Shown here: positions 5,805 to 15,213 of the stretch, one piece after another
Layout: every line of letters begins with the position of its first letter
Position numbering within the stretch: the first letter of the stretch is position 1
Virus record (IMG/VR): IMGVR_UViG_3300032218_003165
Location: 1-27,255 of that record
DNA: 27,255 nt
From: a virus
Lineage: Duplodnaviria > Caudoviricetes
Direction: 5' to 3' (one strand)
Notes under the pieces: generated by a model
What the model saw: the letters and a program-made list of their open reading frames with translations, nothing else
Told to the model about the DNA's origin: nothing
The model's database searches: none
Program-made: the position numbers and the translations under genes

Positions 5805-5877
5805 TGGGGGAGGCCGGACTCGAACCGGCGACCTTCGGATTATGAGCCCGACGAGCTACCAACTGCTCCACTCCCCG
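5805..5877 (-). tRNA. tRNA-Met (CAT), initiator-type; CCA not encoded
   Basis: Full cloverleaf CGGGGAG-TG-GAGC-AGTTGGTA-GCTC-G-TCGGG-CTCATAA-TCCGA-AGGTC-GCCGG-TTCGAGT-CCGGC-CTCCCCC-A; C1xC72 mismatch and A11-U24. Confidence 0.95.
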
Positions 5878-5882
5878 CCTAG

Positions 5883-5947
5883 GACGCGATGAGGGAATCG
5901 AACCCTCGTTTTCCCATTGGGAGTCCTACCACTGGATGAATCGCGTC
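5883..5947 (-). ncRNA. tRNA-like RNA with collapsed anticodon arm (tRNA mimic or pseudo-tRNA)
   Basis: 8-bp acceptor GACGCGAT/ATCGCGTC, D-arm ATCC-AGTGGTA-GGAC, T-arm GAGGG-TTCGATT-CCCTC; anticodon arm is only TCCC-AAT-GGGA. Confidence 0.8.
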
Positions 5948-8352: not shown

Positions 8353-9978
8353 TCACGCCCCAGCATCGTGTTGACTCAGCCTGGAGCATCCGGCCTTCCA
8401 GTAGTCCTCGTTGATCTCGCAAGCCCAATAGTGTCTGCCGATCGACTGAGCCGCCTCGCACGTGCTGCCGACACCGCCAAAAGGATCGGCTACGCGCTGT
8501 CCTTCAACGGACACAGCCTTAAGGATGTGGCACAGAAGATCGACGGGTTTTTCAGTCGGGTGCCTGTCTGCGTTCACGCGGTCAAACTCCATCACGTCCG
8601 CTTCTCGAGTGAAGAGGATCGGTGAACCCTTGACGGCGTGAATGATCCGCTCGTGCTTTGGTGCAAACGTGGTGTTGGGGTCACCCATGCCGGCGGCGTT
8701 CTTCACCCATACCAGCGAGCCGCGGATGGCGAGGCCGGCTTCTACGAGCGAGGCGCGCATGGCCTCCTCGTTTCGCCAGTTCGTGAAAACAAAAACGTGA
8801 GCGTCGGCAGTGAGCTTCGGCATAAAAGCCGTGACAAACTCCGCCACCTCGGCCGGGCCTTCGCCAGCTCCGTCGTTCTCGATCTTGTCGTGCCGCCGTT
8901 CCTTGCGGCGATCCACACGGTGATCGCTCTGGTATCCCATCCCATACGGCGGATCGGTCAGCAGCACCGACACCGATCCGTCGATGACCGAGTCCACGTG
9001 ATCCCGCCAATTGCCGTGCAACCACTGATTCGGACCGCTCTTGCGAATGCGCTCCTCGATCTCCAGGCGGTAGCCGATGATCTGGCGAACGTCCCACGAC
9101 TTGCCGCCTTGGTTGTCGATCAGCCAGCGTTCGACTTCGTCCATCCAACCTGCGGCCAGTTGGCCTGAACGCTCGATCTCTTCGCGGTGCTCGTGGATCA
9201 AGTCCATGATCGCGTTCCGCTCTTCGGCAAGCTTGCGGACGGTCTGAGCCGAAAACTCCTTCGTGTCAAGGAACCGCTCGACGATGCCGGCCAGCGGCAG
9301 CCACAGCGAACAGCCCTCCGGCTCTTGGAACTCGTTGACCTTTCCGACCCAGTGTTCCGTGTCGGCGACGGTCCAACCATTCAGCATGTGCGGAACGATC
9401 ACCGGCCACAGCGAAGAATCGGCAGAGTGGATGCAATACAGGTGCTTCGCTTTTTCCAGCAAATCGTTTACTTGAGTAAACGATTTCGCCACCTCTGCGG
9501 CCGCAACGAGTTGAGACAGATACGGAGCGCCCTTGCCAAGTTTTCGGGCGTAGTCAGCAAGGCCGCCCTTCTTTCCACGCCCGGCCGCCGCCTTCCCGAC
9601 ACGCTCCAAAGCATGCAGACCGATCTCGAGCGGTGCCAATTCGCCCTGATTGTTGCTCGTCGCCAGTGCCATGTACGCCTGCTCATCGTCCATCTCGACG
9701 ACCCAGCACGGCACCGACTCAAGCCCGCATTTCACGGCAGCGGCGTGCCGATGGTGTCCGCTGATGATCTCGTATTCATTGCCGACGAAGCGGACAGTGA
9801 TTGCGTGACGTGGTTCGATGGCCTTAAGTTCTTCGATGCCGTCCGCGATCGCATCGACAACGTCCTGACGAAGCGCCACGCGCGGATTCTTTGGGTGCGG
9901 TCGAAGTGCCTTGACCGAAATCATTCGTACCGTTTCTGACGCCGTTGACATCTGTGCCTCGTTGTTTGTCTGTGCCAT
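8353..9978 (-). CDS. ParB/Srx-domain fused beta-class N6/N4 DNA methyltransferase
   Basis: N-terminal PHPKNPR...IISGHHR (ParB); C-terminal TDPPYG (motif IV), HPTEKP and DPFGGVGST (motif I) in beta order. Confidence 0.92.
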   Translation of the reverse strand: MAQTNNEAQMSTASETVRMISVKALRPHPKNPRVALRQDVVDAIADGIEELKAIEPRHAITVRFVGNEYEIISGHHRHAAAVKCGLESVPCWVVEMDDEQAYMALATSNNQGELAPLEIGLHALERVGKAAAGRGKKGGLADYARKLGKGAPYLSQLVAAAEVAKSFTQVNDLLEKAKHLYCIHSADSSLWPVIVPHMLNGWTVADTEHWVGKVNEFQEPEGCSLWLPLAGIVERFLDTKEFSAQTVRKLAEERNAIMDLIHEHREEIERSGQLAAGWMDEVERWLIDNQGGKSWDVRQIIGYRLEIEERIRKSGPNQWLHGNWRDHVDSVIDGSVSVLLTDPPYGMGYQSDHRVDRRKERRHDKIENDGAGEGPAEVAEFVTAFMPKLTADAHVFVFTNWRNEEAMRASLVEAGLAIRGSLVWVKNAAGMGDPNTTFAPKHERIIHAVKGSPILFTREADVMEFDRVNADRHPTEKPVDLLCHILKAVSVEGQRVADPFGGVGSTCEAAQSIGRHYWACEINEDYWKAGCSRLSQHDAGA

Positions 9979-9980
9979 AG

Positions 9981-10289
9981 TCACACCCTCCCCCAAGTCA
10001 CCGCCCTCTTCCCGCCCTTCGTCCGCCCCTCGCCGGCCTGCCTGACCAGCCCATCGGCGACGAGCTTCACCCGCCGCGGCCGCACCGCGTTCAGATCGAT
10101 CCCGAGGGCCAGGCCGATCGCCTCGTCCGTCATCGCCCCGCGGGCGGCGAGTAGATCGAGGATGCGTTGCCGCTGACTCTCGGCCTTGGTCTTCGTCTGC
10201 CCCTTCGCCGCCGCCACGCTCGTCGGCGAGTGCTGCTGGGCCGGGGCGTCATCGAGCGGGAGATAGTGTTGTCCGTTGAATACGCTCAT
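9981..10289 (-). CDS. winged-HTH protein
   Basis: Start MSVFNG at 10289; TS.AAA...RILDLL..RGAMTDEAI..ALG...NAVRPRRVKLV..GLV. Confidence 0.8.
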   Translation of the reverse strand: MSVFNGQHYLPLDDAPAQQHSPTSVAAAKGQTKTKAESQRQRILDLLAARGAMTDEAIGLALGIDLNAVRPRRVKLVADGLVRQAGEGRTKGGKRAVTWGRV

Positions 10290-11780: not shown

Positions 11781-12049
11781 GCCTTCTCCTCTCGTGCCGC
11801 GAAGATCAGACAATCGCGGATGTTGATGATGGTGTTCGACAGCGGCTGCGGTGTGGGCGAGCACTGATACCAGTCCTCAACCATCATTCGGCACAGTTCA
11901 ACGAGGTGCGGGGCAATCTCCCTGCCCTTCGCCTCGCTGATCTCCGGGCACACCGGCACGGAACGGTAAGCCGTCAGACGGTCGCGGACACGCTCAGCGT
12001 TGAGCAGAGCCTTTGCCGCTGGCGTGATCGGTGCGGGTGCGTCGGTCAT
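11777..12049 (-). CDS. hypothetical protein
   Basis: 90 aa, ATGA-coupled within the operon. Confidence 0.65.
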   Translation of the reverse strand: MTDAPAPITPAAKALLNAERVRDRLTAYRSVPVCPEISEAKGREIAPHLVELCRMMVEDWYQCSPTPQPLSNTIINIRDCLIFAAREEKA

Positions 12050-12780
12050 GCCACCACCTCCGTCTCGATCTCGGCGTGCCGGGCGTCGATCATGCCGTCG
12101 AGCTGCTCCCGCTGTTCCGGCGAGAGCTTGCCGCTGCTGACGGCGGCATCGGCGTCGTCGCCGATCCGGCCCAGCTCATCGACCGTCACCGCCTGGGCGA
12201 CGCGGTCACGCCAGCCGGGCCGCTTGGCCGGCTCGGCGGCCTTCGGCGTCGGCATCGCGTCCCGCAGCTCGTCCGGGTCGTAGTTCCCGACCGCACCGGC
12301 CCAGCCGATGCTCTTGAGCGCCGCCGTGATGCACCGGCTGCGGATCATCGCCCTCGGAAACTTGCTGTGGTTGCCGCCCGTGAGCCCGGCCTTCTTGGAG
12401 TCTTCGGCCGTCCATGTCTCGGAGTGCTTGTCCCCGTTCGGGTGCGTCAAGTGCAGCACGGCCCGCGTGTCGTCGAGCGTCTCAAACTCAGCCCGGCCGC
12501 CGGACTCCTTGAAACGGGCCAACTGGCTGTCGGCCTTCTCGACGACGTTGCCCTTGATGATCTGGAGCGAGCGGATCGCCCTCATCGGCGGGATGCCCAT
12601 ATCCCGGCCCGTCAGGACGATCGCGGCAAACTGCTCGCCTGTCCTGATGTGGTCGGGCAGAAATCCGGTCTTCACCATCTGCGAGCCGGCTTGCACCAGC
12701 TCAAAGAAGTTGAAGGACTCCGTCGCCTCGCGGACGGCAACTTCGCCGCCTCGCACTTCCGTCGTGATCTCATTCCCCAT
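12046..12780 (-). CDS. RecT/Red-beta-family single-strand annealing protein
   Basis: GFLPDHI...AIVLTGRDMGIPPMRAIRSLQIIKG...WTAEDSKKAGL...KFPRAMIRSRCI...YDPDEL; start re-called to 12780 (or 12786). Confidence 0.85.
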   Translation of the reverse strand: MGNEITTEVRGGEVAVREATESFNFFELVQAGSQMVKTGFLPDHIRTGEQFAAIVLTGRDMGIPPMRAIRSLQIIKGNVVEKADSQLARFKESGGRAEFETLDDTRAVLHLTHPNGDKHSETWTAEDSKKAGLTGGNHSKFPRAMIRSRCITAALKSIGWAGAVGNYDPDELRDAMPTPKAAEPAKRPGWRDRVAQAVTVDELGRIGDDADAAVSSGKLSPEQREQLDGMIDARHAEIETEVVA

Positions 12781-12905
12781 CGCCATCTCCCATGAATGTG
12801 TTGATCGTTCCCCGCCGCCGGCGTCTCCGACGCCGACGGCCCTCATCCATGACCACCCGCTCCGCGGGCTCCGTGCCGGTGGCGTCTTGCCACGGCCCGT
12901 CCTGT
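12781..12905 (-). ncRNA. CsrB/RsmZ-like GGA-hairpin array (sRNA or recT leader)
   Basis: Seven GGA motifs in 125 nt, at least four in apical loops: GGC-ACGGA-GCC, CGC-GGA-GCG, TCA-TGGA-TGA, GCCGTCGGCGTC-GGA-GACGCCGGCGGC. Confidence 0.65.
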
Positions 12906-13172
12906 TCAGCGAACCTCGCTCGGATCGGCAACGAGCACGTCCATCGGAACCGGCTCGTGGATGTCAGACGGACGGACAGCAATCCGCCCGCCGTCGATCT
13001 CCAGCGTCAGCCATCCAGCAGCAACTTCGACCACGCGGCCGGAGAACGCCTTCCCGTAGCACTCGCCAGAAACCCACTGGTCAACCTCGTATGCCGGTCG
13101 GCCGTAGGTCTCAACCATCCCCGCGATCGCGCCGGCAGCTTCCGCATCACCGGGCATGACATTCGTGTGCAT
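12906..13172 (-). CDS. small SH3-like beta-barrel hypothetical protein
   Basis: VDQWVSG...FSGRVVEV..GWLTLEIDGGRIAVRPSDI pattern; GGAG RBS. Confidence 0.65.
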   Translation of the reverse strand: MHTNVMPGDAEAAGAIAGMVETYGRPAYEVDQWVSGECYGKAFSGRVVEVAAGWLTLEIDGGRIAVRPSDIHEPVPMDVLVADPSEVR

Positions 13173-13829: not shown

Positions 13830-13859
13830 AAGATATTCCAGCCCCTGCGGATCCGTCAA
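13830..13859 (-). promoter_or_regulatory. putative sigma70 early promoter
   Basis: TTGACG-N18-TATCTT in the ~250 bp intergenic gap upstream of the early operon. Confidence 0.55.
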
Positions 13860-13909: not shown

Positions 13910-14140
13910 CTAAGAAGCCCGCTTGGAGTAACCCTTGCGGGGCCGGCCTGTCGTTGGCGGCCGAGCGACGACGCGATCAACGTCTGCATCGAGAAAGGCA
14001 GAAGCACGGCCGAAACGATAGCGCTTCAACTGCTTCCGCCGCACCAGGGTGTGGACGCCGCCCGTCGTCATGCCCAGCCGCTTCGCGGCCTCATCGACGG
14101 TGATCCAATTTCCGATCGGTGCGGGAAGTGACACTGCCAT
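13910..14140 (-). CDS. HTH_17 (Xis/MerR-like) DNA-binding protein, excisionase or repressor
   Basis: WITVDEAAKRLGMTTGGVHTLVRRKQL...GRPR; divergent from the integrase. Confidence 0.85.
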   Translation of the reverse strand: MAVSLPAPIGNWITVDEAAKRLGMTTGGVHTLVRRKQLKRYRFGRASAFLDADVDRVVARPPTTGRPRKGYSKRAS

Positions 14141-14146
14141 GCCCCG

Positions 14147-14174
14147 AGGATATTCCCCCGGCGCGCGACATCAA
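14147..14174 (-). promoter_or_regulatory. putative leaderless promoter of the HTH gene
   Basis: TTGATG-N16-TATCCT, 6 nt before ATG 14140, no Shine-Dalgarno. Confidence 0.5.
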
Positions 14175-14202
14175 GTCTGCGTATCGTTCCCTTGTTCACG
14201 CG

Positions 14203-14253
14203 GCCCCTGTGTTTGCAGGGGCTTGAATGGAGGATAGTTCTCTCGATCCCCTG
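14203..14253. other. candidate attP: degenerate tRNA-Ala 3' end plus hairpin
   Basis: TGGAGGATAGttctCTCGAtCCCCTG (14228-14253) resembles the reverse complement of a tRNA T-arm and acceptor end; hairpin GCCCCTG/CAGGGGC at 14203-14222 follows it in tRNA sense. Confidence 0.5.
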
Positions 14254-14313
14254 GTGGACGACTGTTCACTGTCGGGTACCCTTGGCATGGACGCCTCAAA
14301 TGGAAACAAAGCC

Positions 14314-15213
14314 ATGCTACTCCGCACTCTCCTCAACGACGAATACGCCCCCCTGAGGGCCCTGAAACCGCGTGCACACCGGCAGTACGAACTGACGCTC
14401 GACCGTTGGGCGGAACACCTCGGCCGGGAGCCGGCCGTGGCCGATCTCTCCGGCCTGCCGGTGCAGGCGTTTCTACAGGCTCGCCGGAAGACCGTCTCCC
14501 AGGCGACGGCCGTCAAGGATAGGTGCCATATCGTGGCCTTATGGGGCTACTGCTTCAACGCTCGGATGGTCGAACGCCACCCCAAGGCAATGCTGCCACG
14601 CATGACGGCCCCACGTCGCATCCCCAAGGCGTACCGGATCGATGAGGTGTCATCGATGGTCCGTGTCGCCCGTGCCCTCCCTGGGTCCATCTGCGGCGTC
14701 CCTCGCGGGCTCTACATGTCCTCGCTGATCCGCATCGCCTGGGAGACTGCCGAGCGTGTCGGGGCGATCCGGCTCGTCGAGTGGTCCGATGTCGATCTTG
14801 ACGAGCGGGCGATCGTGTTTCGGGCTGAGAACAGGAAGGGCGGTTCCGCGGACAACAGGCGGGAGATCAGCGATGAGCTTGCCGGCTGGCTGAAAAAGAT
14901 GCGACAGCCTGGGCAGCGGCTCGTCTGGCCGTGGGACGGCAGCGAGACCGGCCTTTGGTACGAGTTCGGCAAGCTGACCACCGTCTGCGGCGTGACCGCA
15001 AGGGGCTTCCACGGTTTCCGCCGGTCCTCGGCGTCGTACCTTGCGGCCGCGGGCGGATCAGCACAAGAGCACCTGACGCACGACAGCCCGAGAACGACGC
15101 GGCTCCACTACCTTGACCCGTCGATCGTCCGGCCGCGGCTGTCGGCTGTGGAGATGCTGCCGGCCCTCGACCTGGGCGAGGCGGAGTTCGTCGAGGACGA
15201 AGACGCCGCCTAG
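14314..15213 (+). CDS. int: tyrosine recombinase / phage integrase
   Basis: Catalytic residues TAER, ENRKGG, FHGFRR, LTH, HY; probable start MLLRTLL at 14314 (ORF open from 14227). Confidence 0.93.
   Translation: MLLRTLLNDEYAPLRALKPRAHRQYELTLDRWAEHLGREPAVADLSGLPVQAFLQARRKTVSQATAVKDRCHIVALWGYCFNARMVERHPKAMLPRMTAPRRIPKAYRIDEVSSMVRVARALPGSICGVPRGLYMSSLIRIAWETAERVGAIRLVEWSDVDLDERAIVFRAENRKGGSADNRREISDELAGWLKKMRQPGQRLVWPWDGSETGLWYEFGKLTTVCGVTARGFHGFRRSSASYLAAAGGSAQEHLTHDSPRTTRLHYLDPSIVRPRLSAVEMLPALDLGEAEFVEDEDAA

What the first reader, a model, noticed from the sequence alone, without database searches (positions are those of the whole stretch)
14226..14313. Integrase leader carries CsrA-type sites instead of a clear RBS: host carbon-state input into lysogeny?
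Seen: upstream of the probable integrase start (14314) are GGC[ATGGAC]GCC (14284-14295, a hairpin with an ANGGAN hexaloop) and AATGGAAA at the position of the RBS, plus further GGA motifs near 14229 and 14256. Established: CsrA represses translation by binding two GGA sites, one overlapping the RBS. Inference: integrase translation may be blocked when CsrA is free and released when it is titrated by starvation or by the phage's own GGA array, giving a post-transcriptional lysis-lysogeny switch.
Basis: partly seen in the sequence, partly recalled or inferred. Interest (0 to 1): 0.75.

Follow-up and report, generated by a model that had tools for sequence, protein, structure and literature searches.

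The report
CsrA-gated switch on phage integrase leader
The integrase message of this phage and of about two in five of its relatives carries a conserved match to the docking loop of the bacterial regulator CsrA, overlapping a predicted fold that hides the start codon, so CsrA binding would likely switch integrase on rather than off and may help the virus choose between dormancy and killing its probable planctomycete host.

Summary
One alone is chance-level, but CANGGANG recurs 20-55 nt before the start in 22 of 54 integrase clusters (8 of 26 in a second set), never antisense, versus 7 of 366 other phage leaders. The hairpin is not the predicted resting fold: its arm pairs with the start codon (14283-90 with 14312-19), and relatives keep such a helix with changed letters. 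Masking the site frees the ribosome-binding region by about 4 kcal/mol (1.3 in motif-free leaders). Phage-borne csrA is enriched with the motif (20 of 43 versus 6 of 57 records, few clades); candidate Pirellulales hosts hold 2-13 csrA. The GGAs at 14229 and 14256 are attP (tRNA-Ala end) and a LexA-like box. A covarying CsrB-like GGA array precedes the RecT-like gene. Untested: binding, sign, transcript start (a -10-like hexamer may cut the hairpin), any carbon signal. The scan noted a similar integrase hairpin and a phage csrA-plus-array on other DNA.

The parts
14314..15213 (+). Tyrosine integrase, 299 aa; start at 14314
   Evidence: Pfam PF00589, phrog_1; most of 50 homologues begin at the same Met, invariant R148, K175, H233, R236, H256, Y266
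14284..14295 (+). CsrA-type hairpin, ANGGAN loop closed by C-G (predicted protein-bound state)
14283..14319 (+). Alternative 8-bp helix, 14283-14290 with 14312-14319, that buries the AUG and the GG of the loop (predicted resting state)
   Evidence: MFE and centroid; pairing probability; equivalent helices in relatives
14300..14305 (+). Weak Shine-Dalgarno (GGA) that is also a possible second CsrA site, 10 nt after the first GGA
14228..14253 (-). attP: 10-nt exact match (14228-14237) and 20 of 26 nt overall to the 3' end of tRNA-Ala(GGC) of Pirellulales; explains the GGAs at 14229 and 14232
   Evidence: core word in 51 of 54 clusters; tRNA end in 44 of 251 genomes; ARAGORN tRNA-Ala(GGC) in 6 of 8 loci
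14256..14267 (.). LexA-like operator GWAC-N4-GTWC (one mismatch); contains the GGA at 14256
   Evidence: 39 of 54 leaders with at most one mismatch against 9.5% of random windows; in 5 of 10 host lexA/recA upstream stretches
14277..14282 (+). -10-like hexamer TACCCT of a possible inner promoter; its transcript could start inside the hairpin
   Evidence: pattern only; 6 of 22 motif leaders have TAnnnT 3-4 nt before the loop
14182..14187 (+). -10-like hexamer TATCGT of a possible outer promoter that would read through attP only in the unintegrated phage
   Evidence: by eye (TTGCC..17-18..TAnnnT left of the core in many relatives); no -35 match in the window; not found by the scan
14203..14222 (.). 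GC-rich hairpin beside the att core; possible terminator for the restored tRNA
   Evidence: inference
13910..14140 (-). Excisionase-like HTH gene, divergent from int
   Evidence: HTH_17, phrog_66
12771..12910 (-). GGA array (8 GGA in 140 nt, several in hairpin loops) before the RecT-like gene; counterpart by position of a covarying CsrB-like element in relatives
   Evidence: relatives
12046..12786 (-). RecT-like annealing protein of the early operon (start likely 12786 or 12780)
   Evidence: phrog_4171

Best explanation
The integrase leader is likely a two-state RNA switch: alone it is predicted to fold so that the arm and loop of a conserved CsrA-type site pair with the start codon, and CsrA binding would capture the small ANGGAN hairpin, break that helix and turn integrase translation on. 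Shown by calls: the motif, its fixed distance from the start, its sense-strand bias and its spread over several clades. Predicted by folding: the two exclusive structures and the gain in ribosome access. Inferred: CsrA is the ligand (host paralogues for this phage, which has no csrA in the 84% held; a phage-borne copy in several relatives); the GGA array in the early operon binds the same protein, as a sponge or as a repressive leader of the RecT-like gene, so that free CsrA would favour integration and heavy early transcription would disfavour it. Weakly inferred: the full switch sits on a transcript that crosses attP, while a LexA-like-box promoter inside the leader may give a shorter, switch-free message for excision.
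For: Motif 22 of 54 clusters and 8 of 26 new clusters, 0 antisense, 7 of 366 other leaders, random 1.9%. It keeps its distance to the start (20 of 22 at -38..-27) while the att core lies -67 to -180 away. Stem: 80.7% of cells paired, 3 of 4 pairs with changes on both sides, G-U accepted. Opening energy of SD-AUG, same span: 11.1 vs 6.8 kcal/mol in motif-bearing vs motif-free leaders (p 2e-4); drop on masking the site 4.0 vs 1.3 (p 3e-4); real site beats its own shuffles in 18 of 22; second set drop 4.9 vs 1.6 (p 0.047). Own motif pairs with own start region better than swapped partners (3 of 20000 permutations); the helix is rebuilt with other letters and from either arm (L018 11 bp, L040 8, L022 9, L080 9, L306 8). 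6 of 7 leaders with two upstream sites have no GGA in the SD zone, so CsrA could not sit on their SD; in one-site leaders the gap to the SD GGA is mostly 9-15 nt, under the >18 nt optimum for bridging (PMC7652899, passages). Phage csrA in 7 of 24 vs 0 of 26 and 13 of 19 vs 6 of 31 records; L4 and R44 positions kept in the L155-L158 proteins. 43 of 43 genomes with the tRNA target hold 2-13 csrA.
Against: No binding, expression or start-site data. In the window the effect is modest (7.5-7.7 to 4.2-5.4 kcal/mol) and vanishes for a 5' end at 14260 (5.4 vs 5.5); its leader fold is not significant (z -1.5) and its own duplex ranks 15 of 22. 5 of 22 leaders drop by less than 1 kcal/mol or rise, including csrA-bearing L072; csrA-bearing L069 stays at 13.1. 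Motif leaders are richer in GC (0.55 vs 0.51); free opening energy was not significant in the second set (p 0.31). A TAnnnT 3-4 nt before the loop in 6 of 22, the window included, could put the transcript start inside the hairpin. All 15 one-site leaders keep a GGA in the SD zone, as repression would need (also 25 of 32 motif-free ones). 32 of 54 clusters lack the motif; csrA occurs without it in 6 records and the association rests on three or four clades; the array occurs with and without the switch. ATG in the loop and CCATG start contexts can pair by chance.
Confidence: 0.5

Rival explanations
1. glgC-type repression: CsrA anchors on the hairpin and bridges to the GGA of the SD; titration by the early-operon array after induction frees integrase for excision.
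For: Hairpin plus SD GGA in 15 of 15 one-site leaders, gap 10 nt in the window, inside the 10-63 nt bridging range; loss of rsmA raises prophage excision 17-fold in Serratia (PMC4046660, passages).
Against: The unbound leader already buries the AUG and the GG of the site, so both states would be off; 6 of 7 two-site leaders lack an SD GGA; SD GGA is common without the motif (25 of 32).
Confidence: 0.2
2. A promoter or DNA feature: TAnnnT followed by GGC and a purine start, or a palindromic operator GGC-N6-GCC, with the AUG helix a constitutive brake and no CsrA role.
For: TAnnnT directly before the motif in 6 of 22; a look-alike TGGCATGAT is an extended -10-like word in motif-free relatives; one bin contig (L172) has the motif upstream of a second box and -10; a shortened transcript loses most of the helix.
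Against: 16 of 22 have no such hexamer; asymmetric loop always on the sense strand; position follows the start codon, not the att core; two copies deep in long leaders in 7 clusters; G-U pairs; enrichment of phage csrA.
Confidence: 0.15
3. CsrA (or another GGA-loop reader) binds but acts on RNA lifetime or termination, as a 5'-end shield like flhDC, with translation effects secondary.
For: The hairpin would lie at the very 5' end of an inner-promoter transcript; flhDC and pgaA precedents (PMC7652899, passages).
Against: Fixed spacing to the start codon and site-specific pairing with the SD-AUG zone.
Confidence: 0.12
4. Chance or neutral inheritance.
For: 24 CANGGANG words in the window; related leaders are not independent.
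Against: Present in clades from 100% to 30% identity whose flanks do not align; label needs 10 changes (at least 6) on the quick tree; replicated in 8 of 26 new clusters.
Confidence: 0.03

Closest known systems
CsrA-activated ymdA leader of E. coli (PMC7492729; abstract and Discussion read)
   Same: A hairpin that hides the initiation region overlaps a CsrA site; binding would undo it and allow 30S entry.
   Different: Here the gene is a phage integrase, the site is itself a mutually exclusive ANGGAN hairpin, the helix often covers the AUG rather than the SD, the host is probably a planctomycete with many csrA paralogues, and nothing is tested.
CsrA-repressed glgC leader (PMC7652899, passages)
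   Same: Upstream hairpin site plus a GGA in the SD.
   Different: Competing anti-start helix; short intersite gap; two-site clades without SD GGA.
CsrB/CsrC/RsmZ sponge RNAs (PMC7652899 passages; PMC4005645 abstract)
   Same: The early-operon array has repeated CAGGA-type words in covarying hairpin loops.
   Different: Sits between two genes of a phage operon and runs into an SD; no own promoter or terminator shown; no Rfam match.
Phage-borne csrA/rsmM alleles (PMC7366521, passages: 30 of 2517 phages, function untested) and RsmA control of prophage excision in Serratia (PMC4046660, passages)
   Same: CsrA proteins tied to phage biology.
   Different: No direct phage mRNA target or mechanism was named in the passages read.
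Lambda CII activation and sib retroregulation of int (recalled, no call)
   Same: Integrase output gated apart from excisionase by an early, dose-sensitive factor and by the attP/prophage arrangement.
   Different: Here the gate would be an RNA-binding protein acting on initiation.

Membership tests
CsrA/RsmA binding site | ANGGAN hexaloop on a short stem | tested here: met
   consensus from PMC7652899
CsrA/RsmA binding site | On the sense strand, near the initiation region, conserved | tested here: met
CsrA/RsmA binding site | Whole site lies in the transcript | tested here: inconclusive
   -10-like hexamer 4 nt before the loop in the window; no RNA data
CsrA/RsmA binding site | CsrA present in the infected cell | tested here: met
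   43 of 43 candidate hosts; host assignment itself is inferred; none in the window
CsrA/RsmA binding site | Direct binding, lost on GGA mutation | not testable with these tools
   needs gel shift or footprint
ymdA-type activated leader | Resting structure that hides SD or AUG and overlaps the site | tested here: met
   predicted only; drop over 1 kcal/mol in 17 of 22
ymdA-type activated leader | CsrA raises 30S binding and translation | not testable with these tools
   toeprint, reporter
glgC-type repressed leader | Second GGA in the SD within bridging range | tested here: inconclusive
   met in 15 one-site leaders at short gaps, not met in 6 of 7 two-site leaders
glgC-type repressed leader | Initiation region open without CsrA | tested here: not met
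   AUG paired 0.94-0.99 for 5' ends up to 14284; predicted only
CsrB/RsmZ-type sponge (early-operon array) | Many GGA in covarying hairpin loops | tested here: met
   6-13 GGA; 6 of 11 pairs change on both sides, 28 cells, 0 of 500 shuffles
CsrB/RsmZ-type sponge (early-operon array) | Stand-alone small RNA with own promoter and terminator | not tested
   lies between two ORFs and ends at an SD
CsrB/RsmZ-type sponge (early-operon array) | Match to Rfam Csr/Rsm families | tested here: not met
Tyrosine integrase with tRNA attP | R-K-H-R-H-Y residues and a tRNA 3' end beside the gene | tested here: met
   (residue roles recalled)

The most novel reading that the evidence does not exclude
A family of freshwater planctomycete phages runs its lysis-lysogeny choice through a complete Csr circuit of its own: a CsrA-opened integrase leader, a CsrB-like array in the early operon and, in several clades, a phage-encoded CsrA that acts as a post-transcriptional counterpart of lambda CII, counting co-infecting genomes against a built-in sponge.
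Probability: 0.3. Interest if true: 0.88.

Novelty: new variant of a known kind. Interest (0 to 1): 0.72.

Why it matters
Phage csrA genes are known but had no named target in the papers read, and translational activation by CsrA has few worked-out cases. If the reading holds, it gives a direct phage target, ties an RNA-binding global regulator to the integrate-or-lyse decision, and offers a first testable job for the expanded CsrA families of Pirellulales. The test is cheap: a 60-nt leader in a reporter with and without csrA.

Tried and rejected
Starts at 14227 or 14287: rejected (homologues begin at the 14314 Met; loop ATG out of frame in the nearest relative; in frame in 6 of 22). GGAs at 14229 and 14256 as CsrA sites: reassigned to attP and a LexA-like box. 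Sigma-54 promoter for TGGCA(C/T)G: rejected by eye, no GC ten bases on (recalled consensus). csrA in the window: none (host-built HMM). A phage-wide CsrA regulon: first suggested by 27 of 220 leaders but it vanished when the SD zone was excluded (7 of 366). The densest GGA stretch of the window (about 7625, minus) is coding. nhmmer with the relatives' array did not find the window's array; homology rests on position and on L086. Integrated prophages in Pirellulales: 38 of 401 genomes hold a related integrase, but none of the 25 loci read showed a tRNA junction with this leader. Sequencing runs: no RNA holder listed. The careful tree did not finish; the quick tree was used. Paper searches (listings and abstracts starts) showed no report of CsrA acting on a phage integrase leader or of the LexA box of Planctomycetes; the library lacks most subscription journals, and the supplementary phage table of PMC7366521 was not opened.

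Full report
Setting. The window is a 27-kb linear virus record, about 84% complete, 64.6% GC. ORF 14314-15213 is a tyrosine integrase, divergent from an excisionase-like HTH gene and an early operon with a RecT-like gene. The best genome match is a Pirellulaceae bin (38%); 38 of 401 genomes of that order hold a related integrase. The host is therefore probably a planctomycete; other orders were not tested for the attachment site.

Observation. All motifs are at the stated places. Alone they are unremarkable: 11 such hairpins and 24 CANGGANG words in the window. The start is 14314: most of 50 homologues begin at that Met, and in the 89% relative the upstream ATG is 29 nt away, out of frame.

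Conservation. Of 134 loci that matched, 115 had a usable leader and start and fell into 54 clusters at 90% identity. Over -75..-1, 24 had CANGGANG and 15 an ANGGAN loop on 3 or more pairs; the antisense strand had 0 and 0, random windows 2.8% and 1.6%, shuffles means of 2.6 and 1.3. Leaving out the SD zone, 22 of 54 carry the word at -55..-20, 20 at -38..-27, against 7 of 366 other SD-led ORFs of the same loci and 1.9% of random windows. The stem shows G-U pairs and changes on both sides in 3 of 4 pairs (80.7% paired, 0 of 500 shuffles; the closing C-G pair is fixed by the search word). On the quick tree the label needs 10 changes, at least 6 (that label included two SD overlaps). In a second harvest (119 loci, 16 dropped for lack of a called start or leader, 71 not within 90% of the first set, 26 clusters) 8 had the motif at -28..-44 and none antisense. 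Seven distant clusters carry a second CANGGA site at -65..-79.

What the other GGAs are. The GGAs at 14229 and 14232 lie in a word found upstream of 51 of 54 integrases; read on the minus strand it is the 3' end of tRNA-Ala(GGC), present in 44 of 251 Pirellulales genomes; other clades use other tRNA-like ends. This is attP. The GGA at 14256 opens a GWAC-N4-GTWC box (39 of 54 leaders within one mismatch, random 9.5%) that also occurs before 5 of 10 host lexA and recA genes (some upstream stretches were cut short by N-terminal extensions). The LexA label is recalled from Gram-positive boxes; the searches found no planctomycete reference.

Fold. The named hairpin is rare in the free RNA; instead 14283-14290 pairs with 14312-14319 and hides the AUG. 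Relatives rebuild such a helix with other letters, from the 5' arm or the 3' arm, and own partners pair better than swapped ones (3 of 20000; clades share both halves, so this shows clade-level fit). With equal spans, opening SD-to-AUG costs 11.1 kcal/mol in motif leaders and 6.8 in motif-free ones; masking a 14-nt footprint lowers it by 4.0 and 1.3; motif leaders are also richer in GC. The second set repeated the drop (4.9 vs 1.6, p 0.047) but not the free difference (p 0.31). Five of 22 leaders gain under 1 kcal/mol. In the window the gain is 2-3.5 kcal/mol and depends on the 5' end (none for 14260). This is the layout described for CsrA-activated ymdA (PMC7492729, abstract and Discussion), not for repressed glgC (PMC7652899, passages). 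Six of seven two-site leaders have no GGA in the SD zone; all 15 one-site leaders do, mostly 9-15 nt from the hairpin GGA, so repression or a two-phase response stays possible.

The protein. The window has no csrA. Candidate hosts do: 43 of 43 genomes with the tRNA target, 2-13 copies each, against 58 of 151 across the phylum. Related phages often carry their own: 7 of 24 motif records against 0 of 26 and 13 of 19 against 6 of 31 (five motif records with TTG starts were scored by eye). Records are partial and fall into three or four clades, so the Fisher values overstate the case. A survey found csrA in 30 of 2517 phages with no function tested (PMC7366521, passages); an rsmA mutant of Serratia excises a prophage 17-fold more (PMC4046660, passages).

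The array. Thirty integrase clusters, with and without the switch, have a 100-170-nt intergenic element with 6-13 GGA in the early operon; in 18 aligned copies 6 of 11 pairs change on both sides around GGA loops; Rfam has no match. The window's counterpart, 12771-12910 on the minus strand, has 8 GGA (top 0.9% of windows), folds at z -2.45 and is kept with altered stems in L086, but the profile did not detect it. It ends at the SD of the RecT-like gene, so it may be a sponge, a repressive leader, or both.

Main doubt. A -10-like hexamer lies 3-4 nt before the loop in 6 of 22 leaders, the window included. A transcript from it would start within the hairpin and largely escape the helix (5.3-5.4 kcal/mol). 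Either the motif is then partly a promoter feature, or two messages exist: one crossing attP with the switch and one from the inner, SOS-like promoter without it. No RNA data were available to decide.

Verdict. The CsrA-type site is very likely real (about 0.8); activation is the best single mechanism (0.5), repression 0.2, DNA or promoter feature 0.15, RNA stability 0.12. A carbon or starvation input has no support here. Ten paper searches showed no report of CsrA on a phage integrase leader. Earlier AI notes of this scan saw a similar integrase hairpin, judged untied to CsrA, and a phage csrA with a GGA array on other DNA; they are leads, not support. New variant of a known kind; interest 0.72.

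Noticed in passing
window 12771-12910 (-); L022 190-294, L077 578-695, L084 537-650 and others (-): Conserved, covarying GGA-loop array between two early genes in 30 integrase clusters, no Rfam family; worth its own report as a phage CsrB-like element or multi-site leader.
   Followed up: partly
L069 709-930 (-), L155-L161, records G602-G622, G651: Phage-encoded csrA in the early region of several clades; the L160/L161 copies are divergent.
   Followed up: partly
G001, G004, G044, G071, G096, G119, G138; 43 genomes: Some Planctomycetota carry 8-17 csrA paralogues while most positives have one.
   Followed up: no
window 14238-14253: The attP match to tRNA-Ala is decayed in the T arm (20 of 26 nt) in this clade, leaving a 10-nt exact core; relatives keep more of it.
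   Followed up: partly
window 13835-13848 and 14215-14228: A 14-nt word (93% alike) occurs in the spacer of the leftward promoter-like site 13859-13830 and beside attP; kept in L001; possible operator or arm site.
   Followed up: no
window 14140-14175 (-): The HTH gene looks leaderless: TATCCT six bases before its ATG.
   Followed up: no
window 5805-5877 and 5883-5946 (-): tRNA-Met(CAT) followed upstream by a second, degenerate tRNA-like match (Rfam 38.5 bits).
   Followed up: no
window 8353-9996 (-): ParB N-terminal domain fused to an N6/N4 DNA methylase.
   Followed up: no
L122, L103, L012, L098 leaders: In motif-free relatives a near-identical word, TGGCATGATGCC or TGGCACAATGCC, reads as an extended -10 box, one base away from the CsrA-type hairpin: a possible route of gain or loss.
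   Followed up: no
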